Assembly (NCBI RefSeq): GCF_904830925.1
Contig: NZ_LR882967.1
Coordinates: 3,362,106 to 3,426,105, forward strand
DNA length: 64,000 nt
DNA from: Planktothrix pseudagardhii
GTDB taxonomy: Bacteria > Cyanobacteriota > Cyanobacteriia > Cyanobacteriales > Microcoleaceae
Direction of reading: 5' to 3'
In this document: positions 6,926 through 43,615 of the stretch, one piece after another
Layout: every line of letters begins with the position of its first letter
Position numbering within the stretch: position 1 is the first letter of the stretch
Program-made: the position numbers and the translations under genes
The notes under the pieces: generated by a model
The model's input: only the letters and a program-made list of their open reading frames with translations
Databases searched by the model: none
Told to the model about the DNA's origin: nothing

Positions 6926-6935
6926 TAGAATATGA

Positions 6936-7928: not shown

Positions 7929-9049
7929 TATATAGCACTTCCAAATGAGTTATAATAAATGTAAGGTTAGCAATAATCCCCCAAAGCTGGCAACGGAAAA
8001 TGAATATAATCGACGAAATAGACGATTTTATCAATCAGACAAAAGATCCTAGAGAAATTAAAAGAGCGATCGCTGTCAAACTCAAATTACAAGGTAAAGC
8101 CTACCGGGAAATTCAAGACTTATTACAAGTTTCTCAAGGATTTATTAGCCAATGGAAAAATCGGGTGCTTGTGGAAGGAGTAGACAGTTTAAAACTTCAA
8201 TATAAAGGAAGGAAAGGTTATCTAAGCCCTGAAGACAAACAGAAAATTATTGAAGAATTAAGGGAAAGAGATTGGTTAAGATTGTCTGATTTACAAGTTT
8301 TGTTAGAAAGGGAGTATGGAGTCGTGTTTCAATCCCATCAAAGTTATTATAGCTTGCTGGAAGAGGCTCGCATCAGTTGGAAAAAAAGCCAAAAAAAGAA
8401 TCCGGCTAAAAATGAGCAGTTAGTCCAAGAGAAAAAGGAAGAAATTGAAAAAAAGTTAGCGAGTTGGAAAGAGGAAATAGGGGCGGGAAAGCTGACAGTG
8501 TTTATGATTGATGAATGTCATCTTCTTTGGGGAGATATTTTAGGGTATGTTTGGGGAAGGACGGATCGAAGAATAGAAATTCCCATCAAAAATCAAAAAG
8601 AAAGGCAAACTTATTATGGAGCTTTAGATTACCAAACGAAAGAATTTATTATCAAAGGTTATGCGGCGGGCAATACAGAAAATACCGTAGACTTTCTCCA
8701 GTATTTACAACAGCAAAATCCGGGGAAAAGGTTGGCTATAGTCTGGGACAATGCCACTTATCATTGTTCTCAAAACTTTCGAGATTACTTAACTCAAGTT
8801 AATCAAAATTTATCGGAAGAAGAATGGCGGATTACTTGTGTAAATTTTGCTCCTAATGCGCCGGAGCAAAATCCGGTTGAAGATATTTGGTTACAAACCA
8901 AAAATTTCGTGAGAAAATTCTATCATTTATGCCCATCTTTTAAAGTAGTTAAGTGGCTATTTGAGTTTTTTGCTCAGGGGCAAATTTTTGATTTTCCCAA
9001 GCTTTTTATGTACGGGATTTTGCCACAACCTATTTAGGATTGCTATATA
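7929..9049 (+). mobile_element. IS630/Tc1-mariner family insertion sequence (~1.12 kb) with imperfect terminal inverted repeats and flanking TA
   Basis: Left end is TATATAGCACTTCCAAATGAGTT (from 7929). The reverse complement of the right end is TATATAGCAATCCTAAATAGGTT (ending 9049). About 17 of 23 positions match. The ends enclose a DDE transposase gene. Confidence 0.55.
8000..9037 (+). CDS. IS630 family transposase (HTH plus DDE_3 domain)
   Basis: N-terminal HTH-like region (EIKRAIAVKLKLQGKAYREIQDLLQVSQGFISQW). DDE region: VFMIDECHLLWGD...AIVWDNATYHCS...NFAPNAPEQNPVEDIW. Confidence 0.85.
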   Translation: MNIIDEIDDFINQTKDPREIKRAIAVKLKLQGKAYREIQDLLQVSQGFISQWKNRVLVEGVDSLKLQYKGRKGYLSPEDKQKIIEELRERDWLRLSDLQVLLEREYGVVFQSHQSYYSLLEEARISWKKSQKKNPAKNEQLVQEKKEEIEKKLASWKEEIGAGKLTVFMIDECHLLWGDILGYVWGRTDRRIEIPIKNQKERQTYYGALDYQTKEFIIKGYAAGNTENTVDFLQYLQQQNPGKRLAIVWDNATYHCSQNFRDYLTQVNQNLSEEEWRITCVNFAPNAPEQNPVEDIWLQTKNFVRKFYHLCPSFKVVKWLFEFFAQGQIFDFPKLFMYGILPQPI

Positions 9050-10008
9050 TGATTATTATTATAGAAGAAACCCATCCCTTAAATTTTAGATCATTTGTTA
9101 AATTATTGAACCAACTGCACTTAAGTTTTGTGATTGCGCCTCATCCAGATAGTGCGATTTTTCATGCAGAATATACGAATCCAGACGTTATTCTGATTCC
9201 CTTTGACCCCAACCAAGCTAATCCCCAAGAAACCTATCACAAGTTGAAGCAAGCTAAAATCACTGAAAATGTTCCGGTGTTATGGATGAATAGTTATTCT
9301 GACTTGAATGTACAATATCTAACGTCCTTTACCTCAACCCTTGAGGCGAATAATCCCTTGACAGCCTCGAATTTTTCCTTTGGTGATTTACCGATTGATA
9401 CAACGATTAAAAGTCTCAAAAATCAAATTGAAATGCAGCAAAAATTATTAATTAAATTACAAGCTGAAAACCAACACCTGAAACGTCTAGCTTCTTTAGA
9501 TGATTTAACTCAAGTAGCCAATCGTCGTCAATTTTATAGCTACTTACAAGAACAATGGCAATCCTGCCAAGAAGACTATCTTTCCATGATCTTATGTGAT
9601 GTGGATTTTTTCAAACTTTATAATGATACTTACGGTCATTTAGCCGGGGATTATTGTTTACAACAAATAGCCCAGGCTATTGAAACGGCAGTTCGTAGAG
9701 TTAGGGAACCAGAACCCTATTTAGTCGCCCGTTATGGGGGAGAAGAATTTGCTGTAATTTTACCCTATTTAGATCAAGAAAATGCGCGTAAAGTTGCTGA
9801 AGAAATTCAACTGCAAATTCGATATTTAAAAATTCCCCATCGTTCCTCTCCCATCCGTTCTTATATTACCAGTAGTTTAGGGGTTGCCTGTTCTATTCCC
9901 GGAGAAGAATCCCATTTACAAGAGTTGATTAGTGCGGCAGACAAAGCCATGTATCACGCCAAGTCAGAAGGACGAGATCAAGTTAAAGTCGCTTCAGATA
10001 TTCTCTAA
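9049..10008 (+). CDS. GGDEF diguanylate cyclase with degenerate N-terminal receiver-like domain
   Basis: ATG at 9049 (the ORF track begins at an in-frame TTG at 9040). Receiver-like N-terminus (IIIEETHP...PDVILIPFDP), then a coiled coil, then GGDEF motifs NRRQFYSY and RYGGEEF. Confidence 0.75.
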   Translation: MIIIIEETHPLNFRSFVKLLNQLHLSFVIAPHPDSAIFHAEYTNPDVILIPFDPNQANPQETYHKLKQAKITENVPVLWMNSYSDLNVQYLTSFTSTLEANNPLTASNFSFGDLPIDTTIKSLKNQIEMQQKLLIKLQAENQHLKRLASLDDLTQVANRRQFYSYLQEQWQSCQEDYLSMILCDVDFFKLYNDTYGHLAGDYCLQQIAQAIETAVRRVREPEPYLVARYGGEEFAVILPYLDQENARKVAEEIQLQIRYLKIPHRSSPIRSYITSSLGVACSIPGEESHLQELISAADKAMYHAKSEGRDQVKVASDIL

Positions 10009-10383: not shown

Positions 10384-10992
10384 ATGAATCGTTGTATTGT
10401 GATGTCTTCTGGGTTGAAAAAAGCACTTCTGACTCACCTATCCCGTAATCAGCGTTGGTTGTCAGTGGTGGCAACGGTGAGTTTATTTCCGTTGTTTGTC
10501 CCCGTTGCTCCGGCATCTGCTTTTCCGTCTTTTGTGCAAATTCGGCGACAAGACTATAGAAACTGTACTCAACAGTTAACTAACGCTGGTCTGTCCGTTG
10601 AATTGGCAACTCAAGGCTGTTCAATGGCAGCTAGGCCGAGAAATATGGGGTATTGTGTCACACAAATGCAAAAAAATGTTGCCGCCCTACCTGTAGAACA
10701 AATTTTATCAGGTTGTTTGCAAGTTCGGCGTCCCGATGAATTAGCCAATTGTGTGGTCAATATTAGCAGCAATACTAACTCATCCGACCCCTTGAATATT
10801 CTTGATAGTTGTCGTCGGAGTGTATTACCTGAAAAGTTGTCTTTTTGTGTTGTGGGCTTGATTCAAGCTAATACAAATTTAGGCGTTGATCAAGTTTTAA
10901 AAACTTGTTTAACTCCCCCTGAAAATGTTGTGGAGTTGCAAAAAGACAATTCCATTCAGTTAAAATTAGATACACCCTCTCAAAAACAATAA
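10384..10992 (+). CDS. Secreted hypothetical protein with four internal Cys-pair repeats
   Basis: N-terminal hydrophobic stretch (WLSVVATVSLFPLFVPVAPASA) looks like a signal peptide. A ~37-aa unit recurs four times: ATQGCSMAARPRNMGYCV, ILSGCLQVRRPDELANCV, ILDSCRRSVLPEKLSFCV, VLKTCLTPPE. Confidence 0.5.
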   Translation: MNRCIVMSSGLKKALLTHLSRNQRWLSVVATVSLFPLFVPVAPASAFPSFVQIRRQDYRNCTQQLTNAGLSVELATQGCSMAARPRNMGYCVTQMQKNVAALPVEQILSGCLQVRRPDELANCVVNISSNTNSSDPLNILDSCRRSVLPEKLSFCVVGLIQANTNLGVDQVLKTCLTPPENVVELQKDNSIQLKLDTPSQKQ

Positions 10993-11071: not shown

Positions 11072-14000
11072 CTAAAACAGAATAATATCATCGGAATTCA
11101 AGGATGTTACGCCTGTAATTCCCTCTAATTTAGCTAGAATTCGAGAATCATTTCCTGATGTGTTATTCCCATTGCCATCATAGATTAAGTAAGTATCCTT
11201 ACCATTATCAAAGGCAAATAGACTAGGGTTATTTGTAGGCAAGACATCGGTTGAAAGATTCGTTTGTACACTGAGGAGAATATTAGCTGCATCTGCAATT
11301 AAACTGGTTGATACGCTAATTTGATCACCCCCCACTTGACCCAAACCTTCAAAATTGTTAATGGAATCATAGAAACCACTGCCAATTTGAGTCGTAATTG
11401 CAGTTCCCACCGCATTAAAAGCAGTACCGCCTCCATCCAGTGCATCGCTATAAATAAACAGGTCTGTTTCCCCTAAGTTACCAATGAGGCTATCTCGTCC
11501 TAAACCCCCAAACAGGTTATCTTGTCCCGCGCCTCCATCGAGAAGGTCGTTTCCACTTCCCCCCGATAAACTATCATTACCATCATTTCCCCGCAGGCTG
11601 TCATTCCCCTCTAAACCGACGAGGGTATCATTTCCCCCCAAACCATTAAGGTTATCGCCAAAATTTCCTCCCGTTACTAAGTTCGGAGTTTCATCGGCTA
11701 AGGGTAATAATTCAATATTAATCTGACCTGTCGCCGTCCCCCCTTGACCATCACTAATCGTGTAGTTGAAACTATCCACCCCGGTATTACTTCCCAAACG
11801 AGTATACTGAACTGATGATCCCGATTGAGTCACTAACCCTTGGGCGGTGGGAGGATTATCCACAGAAGTCAACGTCAGGACATCTCCATCGGGGTCACTA
11901 TCGTTATCTAACGGAGAAATCGGGAATTGGATGCTATTATTGGTAAAAATTGGGCCATCAGTAACAGCAACAGGTAAATCATTAACCGCCGTAATATTAA
12001 TCGTAACCGTTTGACTGACCGCAGGATTTTCACCGTCACTCACGGTATATAAAAATACCCCGGCTGAACCATTAACATTAGCTTTTGGTACAAATTCTAA
12101 CTGACTAATTTCAGCACTCGTTAAGGTTTGACCAATAATAATAGAGTTAGTTTGACCCGTAATACGGACGATTCCTTTAGTGCTATCAGGAATACTATTA
12201 ACAGTAATAATTAACGGGTCATTATTGGGATCAACTGGGGATGAAATTCCCAAATTCTGAGTTATATCTTCAGTAATATTAACGGTCGTATTCCCTTGAA
12301 CTACTGGAGGAAGATTTAAGCCAGCAATTCCAGCAAAGTCATTAACATTAAGGGTTGTCACACCATTAACGTTGTCTAATTTTGCCAAAATTCGAGAATC
12401 ATTACCCGTTGTATTATCACCATTACCATCATAAATGAGGTAAGTGCTACTGCCATCATCAAAAGCAAATAGACCCGGATTTGTACCCGGAATCACATCT
12501 GCGGTAATATTGGTTTGTACCGTTGTGGCAATATTGGCAAAGGATTGAATCACCGTTGTGGCAAAATTAATCTGATCTCCGACCGCAGCCCCTAAGCCTT
12601 CAAAATCGGTGATAGTATCATATAAAGCACTTCCAATTTGAGCTTTAATCTCTGTATTAGAACTTGCATTAAAACCCGACCCACCGCCATCATTAGCAGT
12701 TTCATAACGAAATTGGTCGCTTCCCTCATTTCCAGTCATCGTATCCGGGGTTAAACCGCCATTCAGGGTATCCTCTCCAATTCCTCCCTGTAACAGATCT
12801 GTTCCGCTTCCCCCTGATAAACTATCATTACCATCATTTCCCCGCAGGGTGTCATTCCCCCCCAAACCGCTTAGGGTGTCATTTCCCCCCAAACCATTGA
12901 GGTTATCGCTAAAATTTCCTCCCGTTACTAAGTTCGGAGTTTCATCGGCTAAGGGTAACAATTCAATATTAATCTGACCTGTCGCCGTCCCCCCTTGACC
13001 ATCACTAATCGTGTAGTTGAAACTATCCACCCCGGTATTACTTCCCAAACGAGTATACTGAACTGATGATCCCGATTGAGTCACTAACCCTTGGGCGGTG
13101 GGAGGATTATCCACAGAAGTTAACGTTAGAGCATCTCCATCGGGGTCAGTGTCATTGGCTAAGGGAGAAATCGGGAATTGGATGCTATTGTTAGTAAAAA
13201 TTGGGCCATCGGTAACAGCAACAGGAGGCTGATTTAAAGCAATCACCGTAATGGTACTTGCCGCTGTATTACTATTGCTCGTTCCATCATTCACCTGAAC
13301 CTGTACTAGGCGGGTGGTGGTATTGGGAGGATTAGCTGTATTGTTATAAACAACTTGTCCAATGGCGGTTTGATAAGCCGCTAGTGAGGCATTCCCCGTT
13401 AAGGTTAAAATTCCGGTGGTGCTGTTATAACTACTGGCGGTAATCCCCGAAGGTAACGAACCATTAGCTGATAAACTTTCCCCACCGCCATTGAGTGGAT
13501 TTGTTACAGTAATTGTGGCGGACTGGATGGTGGTATTGTCTGCATCCGTAATTACAATACTACTCCCACTCGCGATCGCAACAGCAGGTTGTCCTTGTTG
13601 AAAGGCTACTTGGGTATTATTTCCCGCTTGGCTACCATTTAAGTCTAGGGTTGGGGGTTGATTGGGATTAACAGTAATGTTAACCGTCGCGCTACTGGTT
13701 CCACCCTGACCATCACTAATGGTATACAAGAAACTAGCCGGCCCTGTATAGTTATTGACTGGGGTAAACAGAACATTTCCATTACTGAGGGTAACCGTCC
13801 CATTTGTGGGATTACTAACTTGTGTAATGGTTAACGGATCATTATTCGGATCGGTATCATTTGCTAAGAGAGTGGAAGAGGATATTGTTAAGAGTTGATT
13901 TTGCGTTCCCACCACACTATCATTCACCGCATTCGGTGGCTGATTCGGCTGATTAATATTAATATTAACCGTCGCGCTACTGGTTCCGCCCTGACCATCA

Positions 14001-17000
14001 CTAATGGTATACAAGAAACTAGCCGGCCCTGTATAGTTATTGACTGGGGTAAACAGAACATTTCCATTACTGAGGGTAACAGTTCCATTTGTGGGATTAC
14101 TAACTTGAGTAATCGTTAACGGATCATTATTCGGATCGGTATCATTTGCTAAGAGAGTGGAAGAGGATATTGTTAAGAGTTGATTTTGCGTCCCCACCAC
14201 ACTATCATTCACCGCATTCGGTGGCTGATTCGGCTGATTAATATTAATATTAACCGTCGCGCTACTGGTTCCGCCCTGACCATCACTAATGGTATACAAG
14301 AAACTAGCCGGCCCTGTATAGTTATTGACTGGGGTAAACAGAACATTTCCATTACTGAGGGTAACAGTTCCATTTGTGGGATTACTAACTTGAGTAATCG
14401 TTAACGGATCATTATTCGGATCGGTATCATTTGCTAAGAGAGTGGAAGAGGATATTGTTAAGAGTTGATTTTGCGTCCCCACCACACTATCATTCACCGC
14501 ATTCGGTGGCTGATTCGGCTGATTAATATTAATCGTACTAGAAGCTGTTTGGGGGCCACCACTACCTGTATTTCCGTTATCCGTTGTCACAATTTGGAGA
14601 GTTGCCGAGGTATTCAAGGATGCAGGAGGTGCGAACGTTAAACCATTAAGAGCCGTATTAATATTTTCCAGACGACCTACTAAGGTTACTGTTGTTGTTC
14701 CATCGCCAGAAATTTCCACATTAGCCGGTGTTGCACCCAAGGTTAAAGTTCCCGTACTAGCTGTTAAGGTAACTTGAATCGGGTTTCCATCAGCATCCGG
14801 GTCACTAATCAAAATTTGATTATTATTAGCTTGACTAAATACAATCGGTTGACTACCATTTGTTAATTGTGTTCCTGGAACCGTATTAACGGGAGGATTA
14901 TTAACCGCATCAATAGTAACTGTGCTAATTGCAATATTACTATCATTTTCATGATCCGTAACGACTACATCAATGATTCGATTTTCAGGATCAGGATTTT
15001 GGGAAGTATTACTATAAACAACTTGAGACAGTGCAATTTCATAGCTAGAAATGGGTGCTGTTCCGGTTAGGAGAATAATTCCTGTTGTCGGATCATAAGC
15101 TCCTGCTGTAATCCCTGAAGGTAAGGCTCCTTGTATTGACAAACCTTCTACGTCACCATTGGGACTATTAATTAAAGTAATCGTTGCTGAAGTCAAATCT
15201 GAATCATCTGCATCAAGAATACTCACACTTCCAGTAATTGCGACCGGAGTTGTCCCTTCCACAAAAACAGTGCTGTAATTATTGCCCGGTTGGGAACTAT
15301 TAAGATCTAAAATTGGAGGCTCATTAATAGATATAACTTCAACGGTAATAGTAGCCGTTCCCGTTGCTCCATTATCATCTCGGATTTGATAATCAAATGT
15401 ATCTAAACCAGAAAAATTTTTATCAGGAGTATAAGTAATCATTCTACTATCCCGATTTAAAACTGCTGTCCCATTAGACGGTTGAGTAACTTCTGTCACC
15501 GTCAGCAGTCCAACCCCTGTGTCATTACTGGTGATTGTATTAGAGGGAATCTCCAATAAACTATTTTGTAAACCCGATACCGTATCATTTTCAGCCTGCA
15601 AAACGGCTGGAGTTGGGGGTTCAACCGGAGGAGGTGTGGGTTGAGAGGGAGTTGGTATGGGTGGAGTGGTTGGGGTCGTGGTCGGTGGAGTGGTTGGGGT
15701 TGGGGTCGGTGGGGTTGTTGGGGTTGGGGTCGGTGGGGTTGTTGGGGTTGGGGTCGGTGGGGTTGTTGGGGTTGGGGTCGGTGAGGTTGTTGGGGTTGGG
15801 GTCGGTGGGGTTGTTGGGGTTGGGGTCGGTGAGGTTGTTGGGGTTGGGGTCGGTGGGGTTGTTGGGGTTGGGGTTGGGGGAGTTGTGGGAGGAAGAGGGA
15901 CAGTGGGGTCAAGAACAAAGTTAGATTCGCTTAAGGTAGTCGCATTAACCCCTTGTAAAACCGCTAAAAATTCACCCGTATTTTTATCTTTGATAATTGT
16001 ATTACTGGCATTGGAGGCTTGACCTTGGGAAATTTCGAGATCTTGGAATGTTAATCCTCCCGATAACCCAAGCTGATCAGTTGTGGTAAAATCTGTAATA
16101 ATATCTGCTAATTCAATACTGGTTCCGCCTGTAGTTCCTGTAATAAAGCTGCCCCCATTGGGAGCTTGAGTAATAACATAACCCAAAACAAAAATATCAT
16201 CTCCCGCACCTCCAGTCAGGGTGTCTACTCCGGCTCCCCCTGCTAATAAATCATTCCCCCCATCACCGGAGAGGAAATCTCGACCTTTACCGCCATTGAG
16301 AATATCTTCCCCCGCACCTCCATATAAACTATCCGCTCCATTATCTCCATTGAGAACATCATCTCCGGCATTTCCAAACAGTTGATCGTTATCATCACCG
16401 CCAGAGACAGTATCATTTCCTAAATCTCCGTAGAGGATATCCGCCCCTTGACCTCCGACTAAACTATCGTCATCTCCGCCACCAAAGAGTTGATCATCTC
16501 CCGCACCGCCACTCAAGAAATCCTGACCAGAATTTCCTGATAAAATATCGTCTCCATCTCCTCCGTTAACGCTATCATTACCCACTTCACCCGATAGCGT
16601 ATCATTACCTTTATCCCCATAGAGGAGGTCATCTTCGCCTCCCCCTCGGATACTATCATTGCCTTGGCCACCATATAAACTATCTGCCTCGGTTCCGCCA
16701 TTCAAGGTATCATTATCTCGATCACCGAAAGCCAGATCACTCCCGGCATCACCGAAGATCAAATCATCCCCTTGACCTCCACGCAAACAGTCATCATCAG
16801 CGCCTCCGACAATGGCATCATTTCCTTCATTACCATTAATTTGATCTTGTCCTGCATCTCCTTGTAGAAGGTCATTTCCTCCTAAACCAAAGATACTGTC
16901 ATTTCCGTCTAAGCCAGAAATCGTATCATTTTGATTACTTCCCAGAATCGTATCATCACCTTCTGTACCTGTGCCCGCACCTTGAATCCGAATGGGTTGG

Positions 17001-17539
17001 GACTCGCTGGGGCTAGGACTAGGGGTGGCTGTGGGACTGGGTGTGGCTGTGGGACTGGGTGTGGCTGTGGGACTGGGTGTGGCTATGGGACTGGGTGTGG
17101 CTGTAGGGCTAGGAGTTGCAGTTGGACTGGGAGTTGCTGTAGGGCTAGGGGTTGCAGGGGTATATCCATCGGGAACAAAAATTGTACTTCCGGCTGGCCC
17201 TGCTTGAATCTCTCCTGTTGTTTGACCCTCTAAAGTTTGATATTGACCATCTGCTGTTTTGGCTAAATAAACAGGTGTATTCGTTTCAATTGATATCGCT
17301 TCTAAAATCGGTTCATCCGGTACAAAAAGCACTCCCCCAGCAGCCCCAGGTAAAGTTGTTCCGATGCCACTAGAAAGGGGGACTAAATTTTGAATATTTC
17401 CAGGGAATGTTTCAAATTTACCCGAAAATTCTGTGGTCGGAAAAATTAAGATTCCATTTCCTGTATTGTACAAACCATTACTCGGAGAAATTCTTAAGGC
17501 TAAAGTAGCAGGAGTTGTATTGATAGCAGAACTTGTCAT
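11072..17539 (-). CDS. Giant secreted RTX/cadherin-like repeat protein (2155 aa)
   Basis: Many GGxGxDxxx nonapeptides (GGAGDDQLFGGGDDDSLVGGQGADIL...). Pro-Thr linkers ([15 protein letters not shown]...; PSPTATPSPTAT...). Tandem ~95-aa Ig/cadherin-like modules (three near-identical copies of NQPPNAVNDSVVGTQNQLLTISSSTLLANDTDPNNDPLTITQV...). No N-terminal Sec signal. Confidence 0.85.
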   Translation of the reverse strand: MTSSAINTTPATLALRISPSNGLYNTGNGILIFPTTEFSGKFETFPGNIQNLVPLSSGIGTTLPGAAGGVLFVPDEPILEAISIETNTPVYLAKTADGQYQTLEGQTTGEIQAGPAGSTIFVPDGYTPATPSPTATPSPTATPSPTATPSPIATPSPTATPSPTATPSPTATPSPSPSESQPIRIQGAGTGTEGDDTILGSNQNDTISGLDGNDSIFGLGGNDLLQGDAGQDQINGNEGNDAIVGGADDDCLRGGQGDDLIFGDAGSDLAFGDRDNDTLNGGTEADSLYGGQGNDSIRGGGEDDLLYGDKGNDTLSGEVGNDSVNGGDGDDILSGNSGQDFLSGGAGDDQLFGGGDDDSLVGGQGADILYGDLGNDTVSGGDDNDQLFGNAGDDVLNGDNGADSLYGGAGEDILNGGKGRDFLSGDGGNDLLAGGAGVDTLTGGAGDDIFVLGYVITQAPNGGSFITGTTGGTSIELADIITDFTTTDQLGLSGGLTFQDLEISQGQASNASNTIIKDKNTGEFLAVLQGVNATTLSESNFVLDPTVPLPPTTPPTPTPTTPPTPTPTTSPTPTPTTPPTPTPTTSPTPTPTTPPTPTPTTPPTPTPTTPPTPTPTTPPTTTPTTPPIPTPSQPTPPPVEPPTPAVLQAENDTVSGLQNSLLEIPSNTITSNDTGVGLLTVTEVTQPSNGTAVLNRDSRMITYTPDKNFSGLDTFDYQIRDDNGATGTATITVEVISINEPPILDLNSSQPGNNYSTVFVEGTTPVAITGSVSILDADDSDLTSATITLINSPNGDVEGLSIQGALPSGITAGAYDPTTGIILLTGTAPISSYEIALSQVVYSNTSQNPDPENRIIDVVVTDHENDSNIAISTVTIDAVNNPPVNTVPGTQLTNGSQPIVFSQANNNQILISDPDADGNPIQVTLTASTGTLTLGATPANVEISGDGTTTVTLVGRLENINTALNGLTFAPPASLNTSATLQIVTTDNGNTGSGGPQTASSTININQPNQPPNAVNDSVVGTQNQLLTISSSTLLANDTDPNNDPLTITQVSNPTNGTVTLSNGNVLFTPVNNYTGPASFLYTISDGQGGTSSATVNININQPNQPPNAVNDSVVGTQNQLLTISSSTLLANDTDPNNDPLTITQVSNPTNGTVTLSNGNVLFTPVNNYTGPASFLYTISDGQGGTSSATVNININQPNQPPNAVNDSVVGTQNQLLTISSSTLLANDTDPNNDPLTITQVSNPTNGTVTLSNGNVLFTPVNNYTGPASFLYTISDGQGGTSSATVNITVNPNQPPTLDLNGSQAGNNTQVAFQQGQPAVAIASGSSIVITDADNTTIQSATITVTNPLNGGGESLSANGSLPSGITASSYNSTTGILTLTGNASLAAYQTAIGQVVYNNTANPPNTTTRLVQVQVNDGTSNSNTAASTITVIALNQPPVAVTDGPIFTNNSIQFPISPLANDTDPDGDALTLTSVDNPPTAQGLVTQSGSSVQYTRLGSNTGVDSFNYTISDGQGGTATGQINIELLPLADETPNLVTGGNFSDNLNGLGGNDTLSGLGGNDTLRGNDGNDSLSGGSGTDLLQGGIGEDTLNGGLTPDTMTGNEGSDQFRYETANDGGGSGFNASSNTEIKAQIGSALYDTITDFEGLGAAVGDQINFATTVIQSFANIATTVQTNITADVIPGTNPGLFAFDDGSSTYLIYDGNGDNTTGNDSRILAKLDNVNGVTTLNVNDFAGIAGLNLPPVVQGNTTVNITEDITQNLGISSPVDPNNDPLIITVNSIPDSTKGIVRITGQTNSIIIGQTLTSAEISQLEFVPKANVNGSAGVFLYTVSDGENPAVSQTVTINITAVNDLPVAVTDGPIFTNNSIQFPISPLDNDSDPDGDVLTLTSVDNPPTAQGLVTQSGSSVQYTRLGSNTGVDSFNYTISDGQGGTATGQINIELLPLADETPNLVTGGNFGDNLNGLGGNDTLVGLEGNDSLRGNDGNDSLSGGSGNDLLDGGAGQDNLFGGLGRDSLIGNLGETDLFIYSDALDGGGTAFNAVGTAITTQIGSGFYDSINNFEGLGQVGGDQISVSTSLIADAANILLSVQTNLSTDVLPTNNPSLFAFDNGKDTYLIYDGNGNNTSGNDSRILAKLEGITGVTSLNSDDIILF
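11560..13260. repeat. Dispersed ~0.45-kb near-identical duplication inside the same gene (11560-12000 vs 12820-13260)
   Basis: Both copies encode LNQPPVAVTDGPIFTNNSIQFPISPL(A/D)NDTDPDGD(A/V)LTLTSVDNPPTAQGLVTQSGSSVQYTRLGSNTGVDSFNYTISDGQGGTATGQINIELLPLADETPNLVTGGNF followed by RTX repeats. Confidence 0.8.
13681..14535. repeat. Three tandem 285-bp repeats inside the giant RTX gene (copies 2 and 3 identical, copy 1 near-identical)
   Basis: Unit starts at 13681, 13966 and 14251, each beginning TAACCGTCGCGCTACTGG. The identical antisense ORFs 13895-14119 and 14180-14404 in the ORF track are a by-product of the repeat. Confidence 0.9.
15640..15900. repeat. 24-bp tandem repeats encoding the Pro-Thr linker (PTPTPTTP)n
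   Basis: Repeating GGTTGGGGTCGGTGGGGTTGTTGG units. Similar coding repeats occur at 16990-17150, 19630-19810 and 21040-21140. Confidence 0.8.
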
Positions 17540-17545
17540 AAGATT

Positions 17546-17585
17546 AAGTAATTAGTAATCAGTAATTAGTAATCAGTAATTAGTC
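17546..17585. repeat. Heptamer tandem repeat (AGTAATT/AGTAATC)n in the intergenic region between the two RTX genes
   Basis: agtaattagtaatcagtaattagtaatcagtaattagt. STRR-like. Confidence 0.85.
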
Positions 17586-17684
17586 GTAGGGACAGGTTCA
17601 TCCAGATGAGTGATTATTCACAAAGATCTAAGAGAACCTGCCCTTACCAGCTATTTGTACCAATAGTTAATCGTCAACTGTCAA

Positions 17685-20600
17685 CTAGATAATGACAAAA
17701 TCACTAGGCGTAATTAAGGTACTAATATTGCTGGTTGCTGGATCAATAGACGGTAAAATTCCTAAATCAAAAGCCGGGAGACTATCATCACTTAAATTTG
17801 GATCATAGCCCATCACATAAGCACCCGGGAAAGCGGCATAAGACAAGTTATTGCGATAGACAAAGAAAGCGGCAGTATCACTGGAACCTTTTTGATTTTT
17901 CAAAGCTGCATTGACCGCTTGAACATTATCAAAGGTATCTTGGAAAATGATCACTTGTTTATTACTAATATCATCCCCTGTAGAACCCAGATTAGAAACG
18001 ATTATTCCTTGTAGAGGAACAACGGTTCCTTCTGCGGTGGTAAAACCGGGGAAACCAAGAGAACTAAACAGGAATCGATCATCGCCATTAACATTAAATT
18101 CTGTGATCACATCAACGCCTTCTGCGGGAGCTAAATAGTAGTAAGAATTATTACCCACATTCCCAATTAAACTATCAGCCCCGGAGCCTCCAGCTAAGGT
18201 ATCATCATCTTCACCACCAAAGATTGTGTCATTGCCACCATCCCCAAAGATGACGTCATTACCAATTCCCCCAAACAAACTATCTAAGCCATCTCCAGCA
18301 TAGATAGTATCTTCTCCAAAATCACCCAAAATCGAGTCATTTCCAGCTTCACCAAAGATGGAATCATCTCCCGTTCCTGCTGAAACGCTATCTGCCCCTG
18401 AACCACTACTAATAGTATCGTCTCCATCTCCACCGGTGATAGAATCATTGCCATCACCAGCAAAAATGGTGTCGTTATTCTCTCCGGCATCAATAGTATC
18501 GTTATCTGCACCCCCGAGAACTAAGTCTCGACCCACTCCGGCAAAAATTAGGTCTTGTCCTTCTTCTCCATACAGAGAATCATCTCCAGCATTTCCAGTG
18601 AGGGAATCATTTCCACTGCCCCCTAAAAGGGTATCGTTCCCAATACCACTAATGAGAATATCATCATTATTCCCACCGGAGAGTAAATTACTATCATCTC
18701 CAGCAACTAAGGTGTCATTCCCATCTTCTCCTAACAAGGTATTGCGACCTGCACCTCCATCCAGAGAGTCATTTCCTTGACCTCCAAATAGAGAATCATT
18801 CCCAATTTGACCCAGGAGAATATCGTCTTCTTCATCTCCTTGCACAACATCATTTCCTTCTCCCCCATCGAGAGAATCTCGTCCGCTTCCTCCTTGTAAA
18901 ACATCTCGGTTGCCTAGTCCTAAGAGGGTATCATTTCCAGCAAATCCTCTGATATTTTCACTTAAACCACTACCTGTAATGAAATCATCGCCGTCCGTAC
19001 CGGAAATAATATCATCAACAATGGTGATACTAAAGGCATTCTGGGTTGTCGTCCCAATGTTATCAGTGAGAACGAAAAGAAAGTCGTCTTCTCCTGATAG
19101 ATTTCGAGAATTATATTCAATGGAACCGTTGTTAATATTTTCTTGAGTAAACCTCTCTCCCACATTAATAACTTGAGGTGTAGACCCGATGGCTTGTAAA
19201 TTCCCTAAGCTGGGTTCTTGAGTAATTTGGTAAAAAATTTCATTCGGGGGATTATCAGGGTCTACTGCCAAAAGATTTCCAGCAGTAAGATTTTCCACAT
19301 CATTAAGCGCAATAATAATCCCATTATTCACTAATAATGTCGGGGGAACATTAACAGTGATTAAGACTTGAGCCGTGGACGTTAAGCCATAACTGTTTTG
19401 AATGGTATAGGGAAAGGTTGATGGCCCTGTAAAACCTGGAATAGGGGTGAACGTAATATTTCCTCCAGAGGTAATCGCTACACTACCATTGGCAACTGTC
19501 CCGGTACTGACTAACGTGAGTTGACTTCCTTGGGGGTCGGTGTCATTTACTAACACGTTAAAGGTGACAGAACCATCGGGAGTTCGTTTTACGGTGTCAT
19601 TTTGAGCAATGGGGGGTTGTAACGGGGGAGTGGTTGGCGTCGGTGGAGTCGTTGGTGTGGGAGTTGTTGGTGTGGGTGGTGTTGTTGGGGTGGGAGATGT
19701 TGTTGGTGTGGGTGGTGTTGTTGGAGTCGGTGGTGTTGTTGGAGTCGGTGGTGTTGTTGGTGTGGGTGGTGTTGTTGGAGTCGGTGGTGTTGTTGGAGTC
19801 GGTGGTGTTGTTGGAGATGGAGTTGGAATCGGAATAATCGTACCGGAAATGGGAGTAAAACTATCCGCGTTGATGGTGGTGCTATTTACCCCAATGAGAA
19901 CGGCAATATAATCTCCTGCACTGCCGTTTCTAATAATCGTATTCCCGGCATTTTCAGCACTTTGGGTAATCGATAAGTCACTAAATTGTAAACCCCCAGC
20001 TAAACCAATGCGATCGCCCAATTCAAAATCATTCACAATTTGAGCGTCTTCTAAATTCCCTCCTCCACTTTCGGGAGTCATCACGAAGGTATCATTTCCT
20101 GAGCCACCTGTGAGGGTATCAATGCCTTTACCACCCCAGAGAAAATCATCTCCAGTTTCACCCGAAATTTGATCATCTCCTTCGCCTCCGAAGGCAGTAT
20201 CGTTACCAACGCCACCAAATATTGTATCGTTGCCTTGATTTCCTTGGAGACTATCAGCACCGTCATTTCCAAACAACAAGTCTGCTTCGTCTCCGCCTGT
20301 TACCGTATCATTTCCAGCATCCCCCCAGAGGACATCACTACCTTTATCTCCATAGACAAGATCATTGCCTTCTCCACCTCTAACACTATCGCCTCCTTGA
20401 CCTCCATAAAGGCTATCATTTCCCAAATTCCCAATGACGGTATCGTTTCCGAGTTGTCCTAATCCAGTATCATCTCCTTCACTACCATCGAGAAAATCAT
20501 TATCCTTGCCGCCATTGAGTTCGTCGTTACCTTCTCCTCCGGTGAGGCTATCATTTCCTTCATTACCGTAGAGGGTATCATTGCCTTCATCCCCTCGAAG

Positions 20601-21320
20601 TTCATCATTTCCCGCTAAACCAAAGATGGTATCGTCTCCACCTAAACCGTTGATCACATCATTTCCAGAGGAACCTGTAATATAATCGCTGGTTTCTGTT
20701 CCTTTACCAATTCCTTCAATAATAATCGGGCGATTCCCCGCTAACACTTGAATAAAAACTTGGGCTGGGGCGGTTCCTTGTTCAATCGTATAACTAAAAC
20801 TATCGACTCCAAAAAAATTCGGGTCAGGAGTATAAGTAAAAATTCCAGCCCCATTAAACACTAAAGTTCCATTAGAAGTTGAGCTAAATTGAGCAATACT
20901 GATACTGGTTCCACTTCCTCCGGGAATAGAATCATTTTCCAGAACATTAAAAAAAGTTGCTTGTTCAAAGTTCGTCTGAAAAAAGTCATTATTAGCAATC
21001 GGAGCCGGATTTGTCCCGCCACTTCCAGAAGGTGTAGGTGTAGGGGGTGTGGTGGGGGATGTGGTGGGGGGTGTGGTGGGGGATGTTGTAGGAGGTGTTG
21101 TGGGGGTGGGAGATGTTGTGGGGGTGGGAGATGTTGTTGGGGTGGGTGCTGGGGGATTTTGAGGGACGAAAATTACATCACCATTGGCACCAGGTAACGT
21201 TTCTCCAACTAACCCGGTGAAGCTTTGAAAGATACCCGGAAGTTCTGTCGGAAAAATTAACAGGGTTTCCTCTGTATTAATAACTCTGGCCCTAACAGTA
21301 TTAATTGCTGCACTTGTCAT
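17685..21320 (-). CDS. Large secreted RTX-repeat protein (1211 aa) with Pro-Thr linkers
   Basis: Dense GGxGxDxxx repeats ([24 protein letters not shown]...). Two PT-rich linkers. The N-terminus MTSAAINT... resembles that of the upstream giant gene. Confidence 0.85.
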
Positions 21321-21808
21321 TTCTTAGTCTCCTCATGAATAAACCCAAGCAATCAAATTAACTCCTTACACCCCAACCTCGTTTCATTTATAGCATTCCC
21401 AGAAGGGTTGATGATAGTAACATCAATTTCTATAAATTTATCGAATTCAATTGTTTACCTGAAAACAAACATAGCCAACTCCATTTTAATATTATTAGTA
21501 AAATTTTTCTATTTCAAAAATGAGTAAGCCTCCTTGCGGAAGCCTTCCAAAATTGAAAATTGTTGATTCAAAATGATGAAGAACTTAGAAAAAGAAAGAA
21601 GAAAAGTTAAAACTTGCACTTCATTGATTTTAAGTCCTTGTGTGAGATTTTATAGGTTAGTCTGAAGGTTAAATTTACCTTCTAGGGTGACTGTTTGGGT
21701 AGATGATCCTGTGCAAAAGTGGCGTCCCAACACTATCTCCTATATTATCTTATTTTTTCGCTTGTTCAATTTGAACCAATCGAAACCTAATATTCCCCAA
21801 CTTACAGT

Positions 21809-24052
21809 TCAATAATAATCCTGATTACTGATAACTGATAACTGATAAAGGGGGCCCAGTTGTTCTTGGCCATTAACCGCTAAATCACTGTGACACAGAA
21901 TTAAGCGATCGCTGACCCGACTCAACAAATCTACAATAATACGACGTAATCGTTGTAGATCAGCTTCCAACCCCTCTTCCACTGTCCAGGGACGATGCTC
22001 TCGTTCCCTTAAAAACAGGGGTGCTCCCCACAGAATACTTGCTCCCCCACTTAACCACAAGGGAGATCCTACATCAAGCCAAAAGTGCCAACGATGGGAT
22101 GCTCGACTGGCCCGATATTGGAAAATCGTTCCTAAAGTCACCCCCCCAGGTTTAATCCCCAAACTGGATATCGGATAGGGATTCGCAGAAACGACTCCTA
22201 GGCGCAATAACTGAATAAACTGACCCACTTGTTCTGAAGGGGTAACACCAGTTTGCAGTTGTAAACGATTCTGCACCTCCCAATAATGAATTGCCGTTTC
22301 CATTAACTCTCGCAGGACGGACAATTGATCGGGTCTTAAACTAGAATCATGAATTAAAAATTGCTGAATTCCCCGGTCTAACAGCACCACCGGACTGGCT
22401 AAGAGTCGTTGTTGATACTGTTGTTGTTGAACTTCAATCCAATGCAGAATCTGTTGGTAAGCTTGGGTCGCTTGATATCCCAACCGATCCCAACGGGGAA
22501 AAGCCGTCACCGGAAGCAACCGAGGATTTTCCCAATCTGGCACAAAACAATGATCCGCCAACAGACCAGCCCGTACAGGGTCAATCACAGGGGTTGACAA
22601 TTCCCTGTTCCCTGTTCCCTGTTCCCTGTTCCCTTCATAACTGAGGGTGACAAGCATTTCTGCGATCGCATCTCGGTGGACAAGGCGACCATTTCCCGGA
22701 TAAATCAAGGCCATGAGAGTTAATAAAGCTCGAACCAGGGGAGAACTGACGAGGGGACGTTGTTCTTGCATCGACTCCACCGTAATACCTGCATGGTTGA
22801 GCAGTTCTCGTAAGGTATAACGGGCAATGGCATCTAAACCGGGAGCAATAACGGCAATTTCATCGGGTTGTACTTGACCTGTTTTTACCCCAGCAATAAT
22901 CTGTTCAGCCGTTTGTCGCAGTAAATCAGCCCGTGATAGGGTTTGAATTGATTTAATATAAGGAGAAAATAAGAGGGAGTCAGGAAAGGCGATCGCATTT
23001 TCAAAGACTAATTCCAAAATCGGTTGCGCCAGGTATTTCCCTAAACCCCTGGGTGAATCTAAGGTTTCCACACGACAACGGGATTGTAAACTGGCGAGGT
23101 CATTGGGATCAGCCCCTAACCCCAACCGTACAGCCCCCTTTGGATTGTAGGTAAATGCAGCCATTTTTCCCTGCTCCAGAAAGAACTCAAACAAGTGGCG
23201 AGCGAGGGCGGGATATTCATCCACATCATCAGCTAAAACCACTGGATATCGACGCAGTAAGTGTTTTTGATAGATGGGATGATGCAGCAGGTGTTGACCA
23301 TAGAGGTCTGCAATTATCCCATAGGTGAGTAACCCCCGTTCTAAACACCAGTTTTGCCACTGTTTCAACCAAAAACCGATTTGTTGATTCAGGGTTTCTA
23401 TTGTCTGTCTGCGGGAGTCAAACCCCTGCTGTAAAATCTGAGGAATGTCTTCAATGGAGGTTCGACTCAGAGCAGCCAGTTGTAGAAGATCCAAGACTTG
23501 GCGCACCCTACGATTAACGCTAATCCCTGGACGTTCTAAGCTGTGGATTTCTAGATCACGACTCCAAAGTTGCAGCGCAAGTTCCTGTTCAGTTTCAGGA
23601 CGTAATCGCAGGGGAAATTGAGCTTTTAACCCTAACTTTTCGACTAATAGGGGCCAAAATAGAATCACTTCATCTTGAAAAAAGCCTAAAGGGGTTGTGG
23701 AGTAAAAAGAATATTGTCCCTGGGGTGTAGTGGTCAAACGCTCTGCTAAGACCATCCGATTATCACTATTAGCCGCAAAAATTAAGGTCGTCGTCCCCGT
23801 GAGTTGAAGCTTTAATCGGCTTTTTTCCGTTTTCTTTTTCCCCCGTTGGGGGTTGGGGCGTGTTCCCAATACAGGTGTCCATTCACAAAATAACTCAATG
23901 AGGCGAGTGGTTTTGCCACTACGGGAACCTCCAGTAATCCACAAAGCAGGAGACAGCACAGCAATCCGATAGAAATTTGCTAAGATATCCCGTACATTGT
24001 ACCGATCAAAAAGACAGTAGACAGCAGACAGGACAGAGCAAGTAGGAGGCAA
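21809..24052 (-). CDS. P-loop NTPase family protein (possibly UvrD/AddB-like helicase-nuclease subunit)
   Basis: Walker A motif ITGGSRSGKTTRL near the N-terminus. A DDVDEY motif resembles helicase motif II. The 747-aa ORF contains an in-frame (CCCTGTT)4 heptamer array. The functional assignment is tentative. Confidence 0.4.
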   Translation of the reverse strand: MPPTCSVLSAVYCLFDRYNVRDILANFYRIAVLSPALWITGGSRSGKTTRLIELFCEWTPVLGTRPNPQRGKKKTEKSRLKLQLTGTTTLIFAANSDNRMVLAERLTTTPQGQYSFYSTTPLGFFQDEVILFWPLLVEKLGLKAQFPLRLRPETEQELALQLWSRDLEIHSLERPGISVNRRVRQVLDLLQLAALSRTSIEDIPQILQQGFDSRRQTIETLNQQIGFWLKQWQNWCLERGLLTYGIIADLYGQHLLHHPIYQKHLLRRYPVVLADDVDEYPALARHLFEFFLEQGKMAAFTYNPKGAVRLGLGADPNDLASLQSRCRVETLDSPRGLGKYLAQPILELVFENAIAFPDSLLFSPYIKSIQTLSRADLLRQTAEQIIAGVKTGQVQPDEIAVIAPGLDAIARYTLRELLNHAGITVESMQEQRPLVSSPLVRALLTLMALIYPGNGRLVHRDAIAEMLVTLSYEGNREQGTGNRELSTPVIDPVRAGLLADHCFVPDWENPRLLPVTAFPRWDRLGYQATQAYQQILHWIEVQQQQYQQRLLASPVVLLDRGIQQFLIHDSSLRPDQLSVLRELMETAIHYWEVQNRLQLQTGVTPSEQVGQFIQLLRLGVVSANPYPISSLGIKPGGVTLGTIFQYRASRASHRWHFWLDVGSPLWLSGGASILWGAPLFLREREHRPWTVEEGLEADLQRLRRIIVDLLSRVSDRLILCHSDLAVNGQEQLGPLYQLSVISNQDYY
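21821..21849. repeat. Heptamer repeat (CTGATAA)n at the 3' end of the 21809-24052 gene
   Basis: ctgattactgataactgataactgataa. The repeat encodes the last residues of the ORF (LSVISNQDYY). Confidence 0.85.
22601..22634. repeat. (CCCTGTT)x4 heptamer array inside the coding sequence
   Basis: ttccctgttccctgttccctgttccctgttccctt, translated on the minus strand as ...EGNREQGTGNREL.... Confidence 0.85.
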
Positions 24053-43586: not shown

Positions 43587-43615
43587 CTGACTTTACCTGA
43601 CTTTACCTGACTTCT
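43586..43615. repeat. 10-mer tandem repeat (ACCTGACTTT)x3 immediately upstream of the STAND gene start
   Basis: cacctgactttacctgactttacctgactt. Confidence 0.85.

What the first reader, a model, noticed from the sequence alone, without database searches (positions are those of the whole stretch)
11072..21320. Two tandem giant RTX proteins sharing an N-terminal module: candidate surface-fibril proteins
Both proteins start with a related ~60-aa N-terminus that has no Sec signal. The two N-termini are MTSSAINTTPATLALRISPSNG...FVPDEP and [18 protein letters not shown]...FVPQNPP. Both continue into Pro-Thr linkers, beta-roll GGxGxD arrays and Ig/cadherin-like modules, and end in short hydrophobic C-termini (DDIILF / SDFVII). 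RTX proteins are normally exported by type I secretion via a C-terminal signal, but no ABC/MFP/TolC genes are in this window. Ca-binding GGxGxD glycoproteins such as oscillin and SwmA form the surface layers implicated in cyanobacterial gliding or swimming, so these are candidates for that role. The conserved N-terminal module is unexplained.
Basis: partly seen in the sequence, partly recalled or inferred. Interest (0 to 1): 0.5.

Follow-up and report, generated by a model that had tools for sequence, protein, structure and literature searches.

The report
Paired Planktothrix RTX surface proteins, orphan N-module
Two neighbouring giant calcium-binding surface proteins of a Planktothrix cyanobacterium really do share a small conserved N-terminal domain that occurs almost nowhere else, and it most likely holds these adhesin-like fibres on the cell, though this is untested.

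Summary
ORFs A (17685-21320, 1211 aa) and B (11072-17539, 2155 aa) lie in tandem on the minus strand. Both contain RTX beta-roll arrays, Big_9/cadherin-like domains and Pro-Thr linkers, and end in D+hydrophobic tails. The window has no ABC, MFP or TolC gene.

It covers the N-module, linker 1, the first RTX cassette and linker 2, about 500 aa.

The module matches no Pfam, NCBIfam or PDB entry. An exhaustive HMMER scan of 1.84 billion representatives found three genuine clusters, all A/B-family proteins (two traced to Planktothrix and Limnoraphis). The block cemA / 747-aa gene / A / B / 202-aa exported protein is syntenic across relatives.

My reading is that these are type-I-secreted, RTX-adhesin-like surface fibres. 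The N-module with its length-conserved first linker (A 48-51 aa, B 54-60 aa) would be the cell-proximal anchor. It is not a canonical LapA retention module: it gets no HMM hit, has no [T/A/P]AAG site and has no adjacent T1SS.

Nothing beyond generic RTX content supports an oscillin/SwmA motility role. I rate it a new variant of a known kind, of moderate interest.

The parts
17685..21320 (-). Gene A, 1211 aa, the upstream member of the pair. Layout: N-module, PT linker 1, Big_9, RTX cassette 1, PT linker 2, Big_9, Cadherin_3, RTX block 2, C-terminal domain ending PSDFVII.
21150..21320 (-). A-type N-module (residues 1-57): [57 protein letters not shown].
   Evidence: BLASTP E=4e-12 against B. 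Alignment A2. dN/dS 0.04-0.13. No Pfam or NCBIfam hit at E<=10.
21006..21149 (-). A Pro-Thr linker 1. Anchor-to-anchor length is 48-51 aa in all orthologs.
19851..20726 (-). A RTX cassette 1 (17 nonapeptide motifs plus an ~80-aa cap ending ...NADSFTPI). Paralogous to B 183-541.
19626..19850 (-). A Pro-Thr linker 2. Length varies among orthologs (59-82 aa).
17688..19013 (-). A second RTX region (res 770-1052) and a 159-aa non-RTX C-terminal domain carrying the putative T1SS signal (...[11 protein letters not shown]).
11072..17539 (-). Gene B, 2155 aa, the downstream member of the pair. The intergenic gap is 145 bp with no predicted terminator.
17306..17539 (-). B-type N-module core (residues 1-78). 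It equals the A-type core plus two 10-aa insertions.
   Evidence: dN/dS 0.24
17162..17305 (-). B N-module extension (residues 79-126). It is a diverged repeat of the second half of the module, ending STIFVPDGY.
   Evidence: hhalign R2 vs R3 P=1.4e-4; dN/dS 0.52
16994..17161 (-). B Pro-Thr/Ser/Ala linker 1. Anchor-to-anchor length is 54-60 aa in orthologs.
15917..16993 (-). B RTX cassette 1 (18 motifs plus a cap ending ...SESNFVL). It is the most constrained part of B (dN/dS 0.07).
15602..15916 (-). B Pro-Thr linker 2 (24-nt tandem repeat; 85-104 aa in orthologs).
12860..15601 (-). B array of Big_9 / Cadherin_4/5 / tandem-95 extender domains. It includes a 285-bp x3 tandem repeat at 13666-14533 (98% matches).
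12335..13153 (-). B internal Big_9+RTX+cap cassette (res 1463-1735), 74% identical to the terminal cassette.
11075..11902 (-). B terminal Big_9+RTX+cap cassette (res 1880-2155) with the putative T1SS signal (...SLNSDDIILF).
21321..21520 (-). Conserved ~200-nt region upstream of A, holding the GAGGAG Shine-Dalgarno. Likely the promoter and 5' leader of the A-B unit.
10384..10992 (+). 202-aa Cys-rich protein with a signal peptide, convergent with B. It is syntenic with A/B in all relatives and was found only in Planktothrix. Whether it belongs to the system is uncertain.

Best explanation
**What they are.** A and B are an old paralogous pair of type-I-secreted, RTX-adhesin-like surface fibres of a Planktothrix cyanobacterium.

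**Shown**
- The N-terminal ~500 aa are shared between A and B. The distal parts differ, and extender number varies between strains.
- The N-module is a genuine domain under purifying selection. It is confined to this protein family in Planktothrix, Limnoraphis and related Oscillatoriales.

**Inferred**
- Export runs C-terminus first through an unlinked ABC/MFP/TolC system. Ca2+ folds the beta-rolls and extenders outside the cell.
- The N-module emerges last and is the least acidic part. It acts as the cell-proximal anchor in one of two ways. It could be a plug left on the periplasmic side, with the 48-60-aa linker threaded through the TolC-like channel, as in the LapA or MpIBP mechanism. Alternatively it could re-bind an envelope component, as the N-terminal domain of RsaA does.
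- Both paralogs would then be mounted on the same anchor and present different distal cadherin-like arrays for Ca-dependent adhesion.
For: **Architecture and secretion signal**
- Domain content and domain order are established.
- The tails PSDFVII and DDIILF are invariant in orthologs. They fit published RTX T1SS C-terminal features: terminal [FLI][VAI], D[FL], and few R/K/E (PMC8861453).
- The beta-roll model is nearest to T1SS substrates: serralysin, PrtC, PML lipase and CyaA block V.
- A third RTX protein in the window lacks the N-module but ends ...SSDFLSA. The C-terminal tail is therefore the general feature and the N-module an add-on.

**The N-module is real and narrowly distributed**
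- It is real by similarity and selection and restricted in distribution.

**Fit to RTX-adhesin logic**
[quoted passage not shown] A and B have this order.
- Linker 1 is tighter in length (A 48-51 aa, B 54-60 aa) than linker 2 (A 59-82 aa, B 85-104 aa). If extended, 48-60 residues span roughly 150-185 A. That is my estimate from about 3.1 A per residue and the ~140 A length of TolC, both from my own knowledge.
- The proximal ~500 aa are shared between the paralogs while the distal part diverges and varies in repeat number: 2155, 1945 and ~1680 aa.
- The N-module has a lower D+E content than the rest of the protein.
[quoted passage not shown] T1SS S-layer proteins such as RsaA have an N-terminal anchoring region.
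Against: - The N-module gives no hit to any NCBIfam or Pfam model, including at E<=10.
- No [T/A/P]AAG LapG site, targeting helix or conserved di-alanine is present.
- No T1SS, LapG or LapD gene lies within about 40 kb, whereas LapA-type adhesins sit next to a dedicated transporter.
- The A-type module is only 57 aa, which is small for a plug.
- AF2 models the N-region with low confidence (pLDDT 60, all-beta) and no fold match was found.
- The N-region of B is less constrained than the rest of B: dN/dS 0.24-0.52 against 0.07-0.17.
- PT linkers also occur internally, so linker 1 may be only a spacer. The linker-length comparison rests on about 5 lineages.
- No expression or localisation data exist.
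- I could not confirm that this genome has a T1SS at all.
Confidence: 0.45

Rival explanations
1. A and B would be oscillin/SwmA-type structural fibrils or S-layer components that serve gliding or swimming. They would be secreted completely and assemble on the surface, and the N-module would mediate lattice or fibril assembly.
For: - They are acidic, nearly Cys-free, Ca-binding RTX proteins with PT-rich, possibly glycosylated linkers. Oscillin and SwmA are also RTX glycoproteins (PMC3034196).
- An HpsL (hormogonium polysaccharide) equivalog lies about 4 kb away.
- RTX S-layer proteins have N-terminal anchoring or assembly regions.
Against: - Oscillin is 646 aa and nearly all nonapeptide repeats. 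A and B are mostly Ig/cadherin extenders with variable copy number.
- No protein outside the A/B family shares the N-module in 1.84 billion representatives.
- The HpsL adjacency is not conserved, because synteny breaks after the 202-aa gene.
- The host is a planktonic, gas-vesiculate Planktothrix.
- I could not make a direct sequence comparison with oscillin or SwmA.
Confidence: 0.15
2. The N-module would be a distal functional head, not an anchor. It would be a small binding or self-association domain, for example beta-strand pairing between A and B or between filaments. It would sit on a flexible PT stalk, and the proteins would be held on the cell by other means, such as Ca bridging of RTX blocks, or released.
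For: - The module has hydrophobic strand motifs ([14 protein letters not shown]) and an all-beta prediction.
- A repeat unit is duplicated in the B type.
- The N-region of B evolves faster, as expected for an exposed surface.
- There is a weak resemblance to symmetric beta-trefoil designs (E=0.004, no individually significant stretch).
Against: - In T1SS the N-terminus leaves the cell last. In every characterised RTX adhesin it is the proximal end, with the ligand-binding region near the C-terminus.
- The beta-trefoil hit is not significant.
- The A-type module is far too short for a lectin fold.
Confidence: 0.2
3. The N-module would be a secretion-related element. It could be an N-terminal leader for a peptidase-domain ABC exporter (double-glycine type), or a docking site for a chaperone or transporter, removed or used during export.
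For: - The extreme N-terminus MTS[SA]xINT is invariant from Met1 in both paralogs.
- There is no Sec signal.
Against: - No conserved GG or GA cleavage motif exists: GG is absent from A-type sequences and shifts position in B-type sequences.
- There is no LSxxELxxIxGG-like pattern.
- The proteins already carry typical C-terminal T1SS features.
- A third RTX protein in the window has no such N-terminus.
Confidence: 0.07
4. The N-terminal similarity would be an artefact: low-complexity noise, a mis-called start, or recent gene conversion.
For: None found.
Against: - BLASTP with composition correction gives E=4e-12.
- There are 18 invariant non-repetitive columns.
- The paralog dS is about 1.16.
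- Orthologs in at least 5 lineages keep the same start.
- A GAGGAG Shine-Dalgarno lies upstream of A.
Confidence: 0.01

Closest known systems
LapA / MpIBP-type RTX adhesins (biofilm-associated T1SS adhesins with an N-terminal retention module)
   Same: [quoted passage not shown]
- Neither has a Sec signal.
   Different: - The N-module has no sequence similarity to the retention module (no NCBIfam or Pfam hit).
- It is much smaller (57-126 aa).
- There is no targeting helix and no DP...[T/A/P]AAG LapG site.
- No adjacent lapEBC-like transporter or lapGD genes are present.
- An extra RTX cassette sits directly after linker 1.
- The linkers are Pro-Thr rather than Gly/Ser-rich.
- The host is a cyanobacterium.
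Oscillin (Phormidium uncinatum) and SwmA (Synechococcus WH8102)
   Same: They are cyanobacterial, extracellular, Ca-binding GGxGxD proteins without a Sec signal and are probably glycosylated.
   Different: - Oscillin is 646 aa with 46 repeats and no Ig/cadherin arrays.
- No shared N-module was detected.
- No evidence here links A or B to motility.
RsaA-type T1SS S-layer proteins
   Same: They have an N-terminal anchoring region, RTX repeats and an uncleaved C-terminal signal. They are acidic and Cys-free.
   Different: - RsaA lacks extender arrays, and its N-domain is larger and binds LPS.
- No sequence relationship was detected.
- Its T1SS genes are adjacent.
Generic cyanobacterial 'calcium-binding protein' / 'tandem-95 repeat' / 'Ig-like domain-containing' RTX proteins
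   Same: - This is how public records name the orthologs (P0001 'calcium-binding protein'; P0002 'Ig-like domain-containing protein').
- More than 4000 proteins match RTX cassette 1 at E<=1e-20.
   Different: None of those outside the A/B family carries the N-module.

Membership tests
RTX protein / T1SS substrate (class with C-terminal signal) | Tandem GGxGxDxUx nonapeptide repeats forming a beta-roll | tested here: met
   - HemolysinCabind E=1.7e-104 (A) and 8.7e-70 (B).
- 17-18 motifs in cassette 1.
- The AF2 beta-roll segment has pLDDT 72-82 and matches CyaA block V at rmsd 1.8 A over 81 columns.
RTX protein / T1SS substrate (class with C-terminal signal) | Uncleaved C-terminal secretion signal: acidic residue plus hydrophobic end, last two residues [FLI][VAI], and an R/K/E/P-poor C20 | tested here: met
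   - A ends ...PSDFVII, a full match.
- B ends ...SDDIILF, a partial match: the last residue is F.
- Both tails are invariant in orthologs.
- The criteria come from PMC8861453.
- I judged this by eye; no predictor was run.
RTX protein / T1SS substrate (class with C-terminal signal) | ABC transporter, MFP and TolC-like OMP present in the genome | not testable with these tools
   - None is present in the 64-kb window.
- The rest of the genome is not available.
- Unlinked T1SS genes are usual in cyanobacteria.
RTX protein / T1SS substrate (class with C-terminal signal) | No N-terminal Sec/Tat signal peptide | tested here: met
   Maximum 15-aa hydropathy is 1.1 (A) and 0.66 (B), against 2.2 for a true signal peptide next door.
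LapA-like RTX adhesin with retention module | N-terminal retention module recognisable by sequence or fold | tested here: not met
   - No NCBIfam or Pfam hit even at E<=10.
- The Foldseek PDB and PDB profile searches were negative.
- The model is low-confidence (pLDDT 60), so the fold test is weak.
LapA-like RTX adhesin with retention module | Targeting helix plus [T/A/P]AAG LapG cleavage site after the module | tested here: not met
   - A regex search found no such motif in the first 250 aa of A or B, or in any ortholog N-region.
- The AF2 secondary structure is all-beta.
LapA-like RTX adhesin with retention module | Unstructured linker able to span the outer-membrane channel directly after the N-domain | tested here: met
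   PT linker 1 is 48-51 aa in A and 54-60 aa in B, and its length is more conserved than that of linker 2.
LapA-like RTX adhesin with retention module | [quoted passage not shown] | tested here: met
   - Big_9, Cadherin_3/4/5 and tandem-95 domains are present.
- A 285-bp x3 tandem repeat is present.
- B varies in length between strains.
LapA-like RTX adhesin with retention module | Adjacent dedicated T1SS (lapEBC) and lapG/lapD | tested here: not met
   - These genes are absent from the window and from the orthologous loci L001-L015.
- GGDEF and EAL genes are nearby, but their synteny is not conserved.
Oscillin / SwmA motility surface proteins | Sequence or architecture similarity beyond RTX repeats | tested here: inconclusive
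   - The architecture differs.
- No non-family protein shares the N-module.
Oscillin / SwmA motility surface proteins | Forms surface fibrils or an S-layer required for motility | not testable with these tools
   This needs EM, proteomics and genetics.
Double-glycine leader (C39 peptidase ABC exporter) substrates | Conserved GG/GA cleavage motif at the end of an N-terminal leader | tested here: not met
   GG is absent from 4 of 5 A-type sequences, and its position is not conserved in the B type.

The most novel reading that the evidence does not exclude
The N-module plus the length-constrained Pro-Thr linker would be a previously unrecognised, lineage-specific T1SS retention device in cyanobacteria. 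It would be unrelated in sequence to the LapA/MpIBP retention module and independent of LapG/LapD. It would plug or dock at the shared TolC-like channel and so convert secreted RTX proteins into cell-anchored fibres. The co-distributed 202-aa Cys-rich exported protein encoded next door could be its periplasmic or surface partner.
Probability: 0.2. Interest if true: 0.6.

Novelty: new variant of a known kind. Interest (0 to 1): 0.35.

Why it matters
- Cyanobacteria encode more RTX proteins than any other phylum (PMC3034196), yet how these proteins stay on the cell is almost unknown. The only worked-out anchoring mechanisms, LapA/LapG and RsaA/LPS, come from proteobacteria.
- A small, sequence-orphan N-terminal module shared by two giant adhesin-like proteins of bloom-forming Planktothrix gives a concrete handle. 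One could delete it or transplant it, then see whether the protein is released or retained.
- If it is an anchor, T1SS surface retention evolved more than once. That would also point to proteins that shape filament-filament or filament-particle adhesion in a harmful-bloom genus.
- If it is not an anchor, these remain two ordinary members of the very large class of cyanobacterial calcium-binding, Ig-like proteins.

Tried and rejected
- **Known-family searches.** Pfam and NCBIfam on the full proteins, and on the isolated N-modules, caps and C-terminal domains at E<=10, found nothing beyond the RTX and Ig families.
- **PDB by sequence.** The N-module profile gave only non-significant hits to designed beta-trefoils (E=0.004, no individually significant stretch). 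I rejected these as evidence.
- **AF2 of B 1-126 with 5 sequences.** pLDDT was 60 and Foldseek PDB gave no match at E<=0.001. The result is uninformative.
- **AF2 of B 1930-2155.** pLDDT was 51 and only the beta-roll was modelled.
- **P0004, the fourth hit of the exhaustive search.** It is a LamG-repeat protein with five identical repeats, each matching profile positions 40-75 weakly. I rejected it as a summed chance motif match.
- **Three-fold internal repeat (beta-trefoil idea).** Only R2 against R3 is supported (P=1.4e-4). R1-R2 gives 0.06 and R1-R3 gives 0.25, so I did not adopt it.
- **LapG site and double-glycine leader.** Both are absent.
- **Riboswitch or other known RNA upstream.** Rfam gave nothing.
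- **Similarity between cassette caps of different types.** Not significant.
- **Functional link from nearby GGDEF, EAL and HpsL genes.** Synteny is not conserved beyond the 202-aa gene, so I did not use it.
- **Smith et al. 2018 (PMC5869472).** The paper was not held. I took the retention-module criteria from PMC13090378 and bioRxiv 10.1101/2025.09.30.679566 instead.
Full report

Yes. The ORF listing gives two tandem minus-strand ORFs at exactly the stated coordinates: A = 17685..21320 (1211 aa) and B = 11072..17539 (2155 aa). They are separated by 145 bp.

- Pfam finds HemolysinCabind (E=1.7e-104 in A, 8.7e-70 in B) together with Big_9, Cadherin_5, Cadherin_4 and Cadherin_3 in both. NCBIfam adds the tandem-95 repeat.
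- My own scan places Pro-Thr linkers at A 50-105 and 489-576, and at B 126-177 and 540-646. Large nonapeptide blocks lie at A 216-413 and B 227-451, with smaller blocks near the C-termini.
- Both proteins are very acidic and almost free of cysteine.
- Neither N-terminus has a signal-peptide-like hydrophobic core.
- The rest of the window is cyanobacterial chromosome: cemA, a phycobilisome linker, cpcT and BFA1. It contains no ABC exporter, membrane-fusion protein or TolC homolog.

**2. Is the N-terminal similarity more than chance?**

Yes, on three lines of evidence.

- BLASTP of the two N-termini gives E=4e-12 with 42% identity and two 10-residue gaps.
- I recovered orthologs of both genes from a Planktothrix MAG (L001), two Oscillatoriales MAGs (L002, L003), Limnoraphis robusta (P0002/L004) and nine metagenome contigs (L005-L013). 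A 10-sequence alignment has 18 invariant columns, starting at Met1: M1 T2 S3 I6 T8 A11 L31 I32 F33 F42 F45 G60 T62 L63 G65 F72 V73 P74.
- The two paralogs are saturated at synonymous sites (dS about 1.16). The similarity is therefore maintained at the protein level and does not come from recent gene conversion.

Selection on the module differs between the two genes.

| Region | dN/dS between orthologs |
|---|---|
| A N-module | 0.04-0.13 |
| other A domains | 0.09-0.18 |
| B N-module core | 0.24 |
| B 48-aa extension | 0.52 |
| B first RTX cassette | 0.07 |

The A module is as constrained as any other A domain. The B core and extension are looser than the rest of B.

Two corrections to the finding:

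- The A-type module is 57 aa. The B type is the same core with two 10-aa insertions (78 aa), followed by a diverged repeat of its second half (hhalign P=1.4e-4).
- The paralogy is not limited to the N-terminus. A 199-488 aligns with B 183-541 at 43% identity, E=4e-68. The shared unit is N-module, linker 1, RTX cassette 1 and linker 2, about 500 aa. The distal parts differ.

**3. How widespread and how known is the module?**

It is very narrow in distribution and it is uncatalogued.

- Pfam and NCBIfam give nothing on it, even at E<=10.
- A PDB profile search and a Foldseek search of a low-confidence, all-beta AF2 model give nothing significant.
- A word-indexed search of 5.8 billion proteins found one relative.
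- An exhaustive HMMER scan of 1.84 billion cluster representatives found only three real clusters. All three are A- or B-type proteins. P0001 is from a Planktothrix MAG and P0002 from Limnoraphis robusta; the source of P0003, a 95-aa A-type fragment, was not determined. A fourth, spurious match was to a LamG-repeat protein.
- Every occurrence lies in the same syntenic block: cemA, a 722-747-aa P-loop gene, A, B and a convergent 202-aa exported protein.
- The window is 93-96% identical at the nucleotide level to a Planktothrix mougeotii contig.

**4. What are A and B?**

Their C-termini are invariant across orthologs...PSDFVII for A and ...DDIILF for B. They fit the published C-terminal signature of RTX type I substrates, which is a terminal [FLI][VAI], D[FL], and few R, K or E (PMC8861453). 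B matches only partly, because its last residue is F.

The modelled beta-roll is closest to serralysins, PrtC, PML lipase and CyaA block V, all of which are T1SS cargo (weak E-values, low-confidence model). A third RTX protein in the window (CHAP+RTX, 47586-48596) has no N-module but ends ...SSDFLSA. The C-terminal tail is therefore the general export feature in this genome, and the N-module is specific to A and B.

The lack of local T1SS genes is not informative. Cyanobacterial genomes carry up to 35 RTX genes (PMC3034196), and one TolC homolog serves many exporters (PMC8277102).

The body of both proteins, especially B, is an array of Big_9/cadherin-like extenders.

- It includes a 285-bp x3 tandem repeat.
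- An internal cassette is 74% identical to the terminal cassette.
- B length differs between relatives: 2155, 1945 and about 1680 aa.

This is the architecture of RTX adhesins, not of oscillin, which is 646 aa with 46 nonapeptide repeats.

**5. How does it most likely work?**

[quoted passage not shown] The N-terminal domains of such adhesins are generally taken to be outer-membrane anchors (PMC12153261). A and B have exactly this order of parts.

Several observations are consistent with an anchoring role for the N-module:

- Linker 1 is tightly conserved in length (A 48-51 aa, B 54-60 aa), while linker 2 varies (A 59-82 aa, B 85-104 aa). If extended, 48-60 residues would span about 150-185 A, comparable with a TolC channel. 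That estimate rests on my own knowledge of residue spacing and TolC length.
- The N-module is less acidic than the Ca-dependent remainder.
- The region conserved between the paralogs is the N-terminal end, which would be cell-proximal. The variable region is distal.

I therefore propose the following, as inference. Export is C-terminus first through an unlinked T1SS. Folding outside the cell is driven by Ca2+. The N-module keeps the fibre on the cell, either as a periplasmic plug with linker 1 in the channel, or by re-binding an envelope component as RsaA does.

**6. Why this is not a member of the LapA family**

- There is no sequence or fold match to the retention module.
- There is no targeting helix and no [T/A/P]AAG site (criteria from PMC13090378).
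- There is no adjacent transporter and no lapG or lapD gene.
- The A-type module is only 57 aa.

These points lower the claim "it is a LapA-type module". They do not exclude "it works like one".

**7. Rivals**

- *Oscillin/SwmA-type motility fibrils.* Only generic RTX and glycoprotein features support this. The nearby HpsL gene is not syntenically conserved.
- *A distal binding or self-association head.* This fits the hydrophobic strand motifs and the faster evolution in B. It runs against the topology of all characterised T1SS adhesins.
- *A secretion leader.* There is no conserved GG motif.
- *An artefact.* This is refuted by the results in sections 1 and 2.

**8. Verdict**

The N-module is a real, orphan, clade-restricted domain whose function is unproven. 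The anchor hypothesis is plausible, at about 0.4-0.45 for any form of cell-proximal anchoring and about 0.2 for a new type of T1SS retention device.

I rate it a new variant of a known kind, with moderate interest (0.35).

Noticed in passing
window 47586-48596 (+): A third RTX protein (336 aa) has an N-terminal CHAP amidase/peptidase domain, RTX repeats, no signal peptide and a ...SSDFLSA tail. It looks like a T1SS-exported peptidoglycan hydrolase and sits inside a cluster of STAND NTPase and TPR genes (42474-51487).
   Followed up: partly
window 10384-10992 (+): This 202-aa protein has a signal peptide and four ~30-aa Cys-pair repeats, and is convergent with B. It is syntenic with A/B in every relative, and homologs were found only in Planktothrix (57-98% identity). 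It has no Pfam or NCBIfam hit. It could be a partner of A/B or simply a clade-specific neighbour.
   Followed up: partly
window 13666-14533: A 285-bp x3 tandem repeat (98% matches) encodes three nearly identical 95-aa Big_9 domains in B. B length differs among relatives (2155, 1945 and ~1680 aa), and the P. mougeotii assembly breaks inside B.
   Followed up: yes
window 7933-9046: An IS630-family (DDE_3) transposase is inserted here relative to the P. mougeotii contig L015. It abuts the GGDEF gene at 9040-10008, which is 322 aa with a TTG start here and 340 aa in L015.
   Followed up: partly
window 3650-5094 (-): L015 has one 598-aa REC-GGDEF-EAL gene. The window has a ~400-bp deletion at 4747-4750 and two separate ORFs (EAL 3650-4504, REC 4717-5094). 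This is probably a disrupted c-di-GMP gene.
   Followed up: partly
window 5315-7048 (-): This is an HpsL equivalog (hormogonium polysaccharide biosynthesis; 645 bits against a cutoff of 640), about 4 kb from B. The adjacency is shared with P. mougeotii but not with more distant relatives.
   Followed up: partly
window 21321-21520 (-): About 200 nt upstream of A are strongly conserved among orthologs despite dS of 0.6-1.0 in the coding sequence. The region includes GGTCGGGGTGT and the GAGGAG Shine-Dalgarno. It matches no Rfam family and could be a promoter, a leader or an unknown regulatory element.
   Followed up: partly
window 17555-17600 and 21830-21855 (-): Heptamer-type short tandem repeats (ctgattactaattactgattactaattact; cagttatcagttatcagtaatcag) flank the genes. 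They resemble cyanobacterial STRR elements.
   Followed up: no
window 21809-24052 (-): This 747-aa protein has a Walker A motif (GSRSGKTT) and no Pfam or NCBIfam hit. It always lies between cemA and A in relatives.
   Followed up: no
window 57244-62235 (-), 62367-63614 (-), 1321-2616 (+): A type I PKS module (KS-AT-ACP-luciferase-like monooxygenase-TE), an IS605-family TnpB and a large serine recombinase are present. I did not examine them further.
   Followed up: no
A 412-492 and B 452-545; B 1615-1745: Each internal RTX block is followed by a cap that ends in a pseudo-C-terminal D/N-F-hydrophobic motif ([23 protein letters not shown]). The proteins look as if they were assembled from complete 'RTX + secretion-tail' cassettes.
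   Followed up: partly
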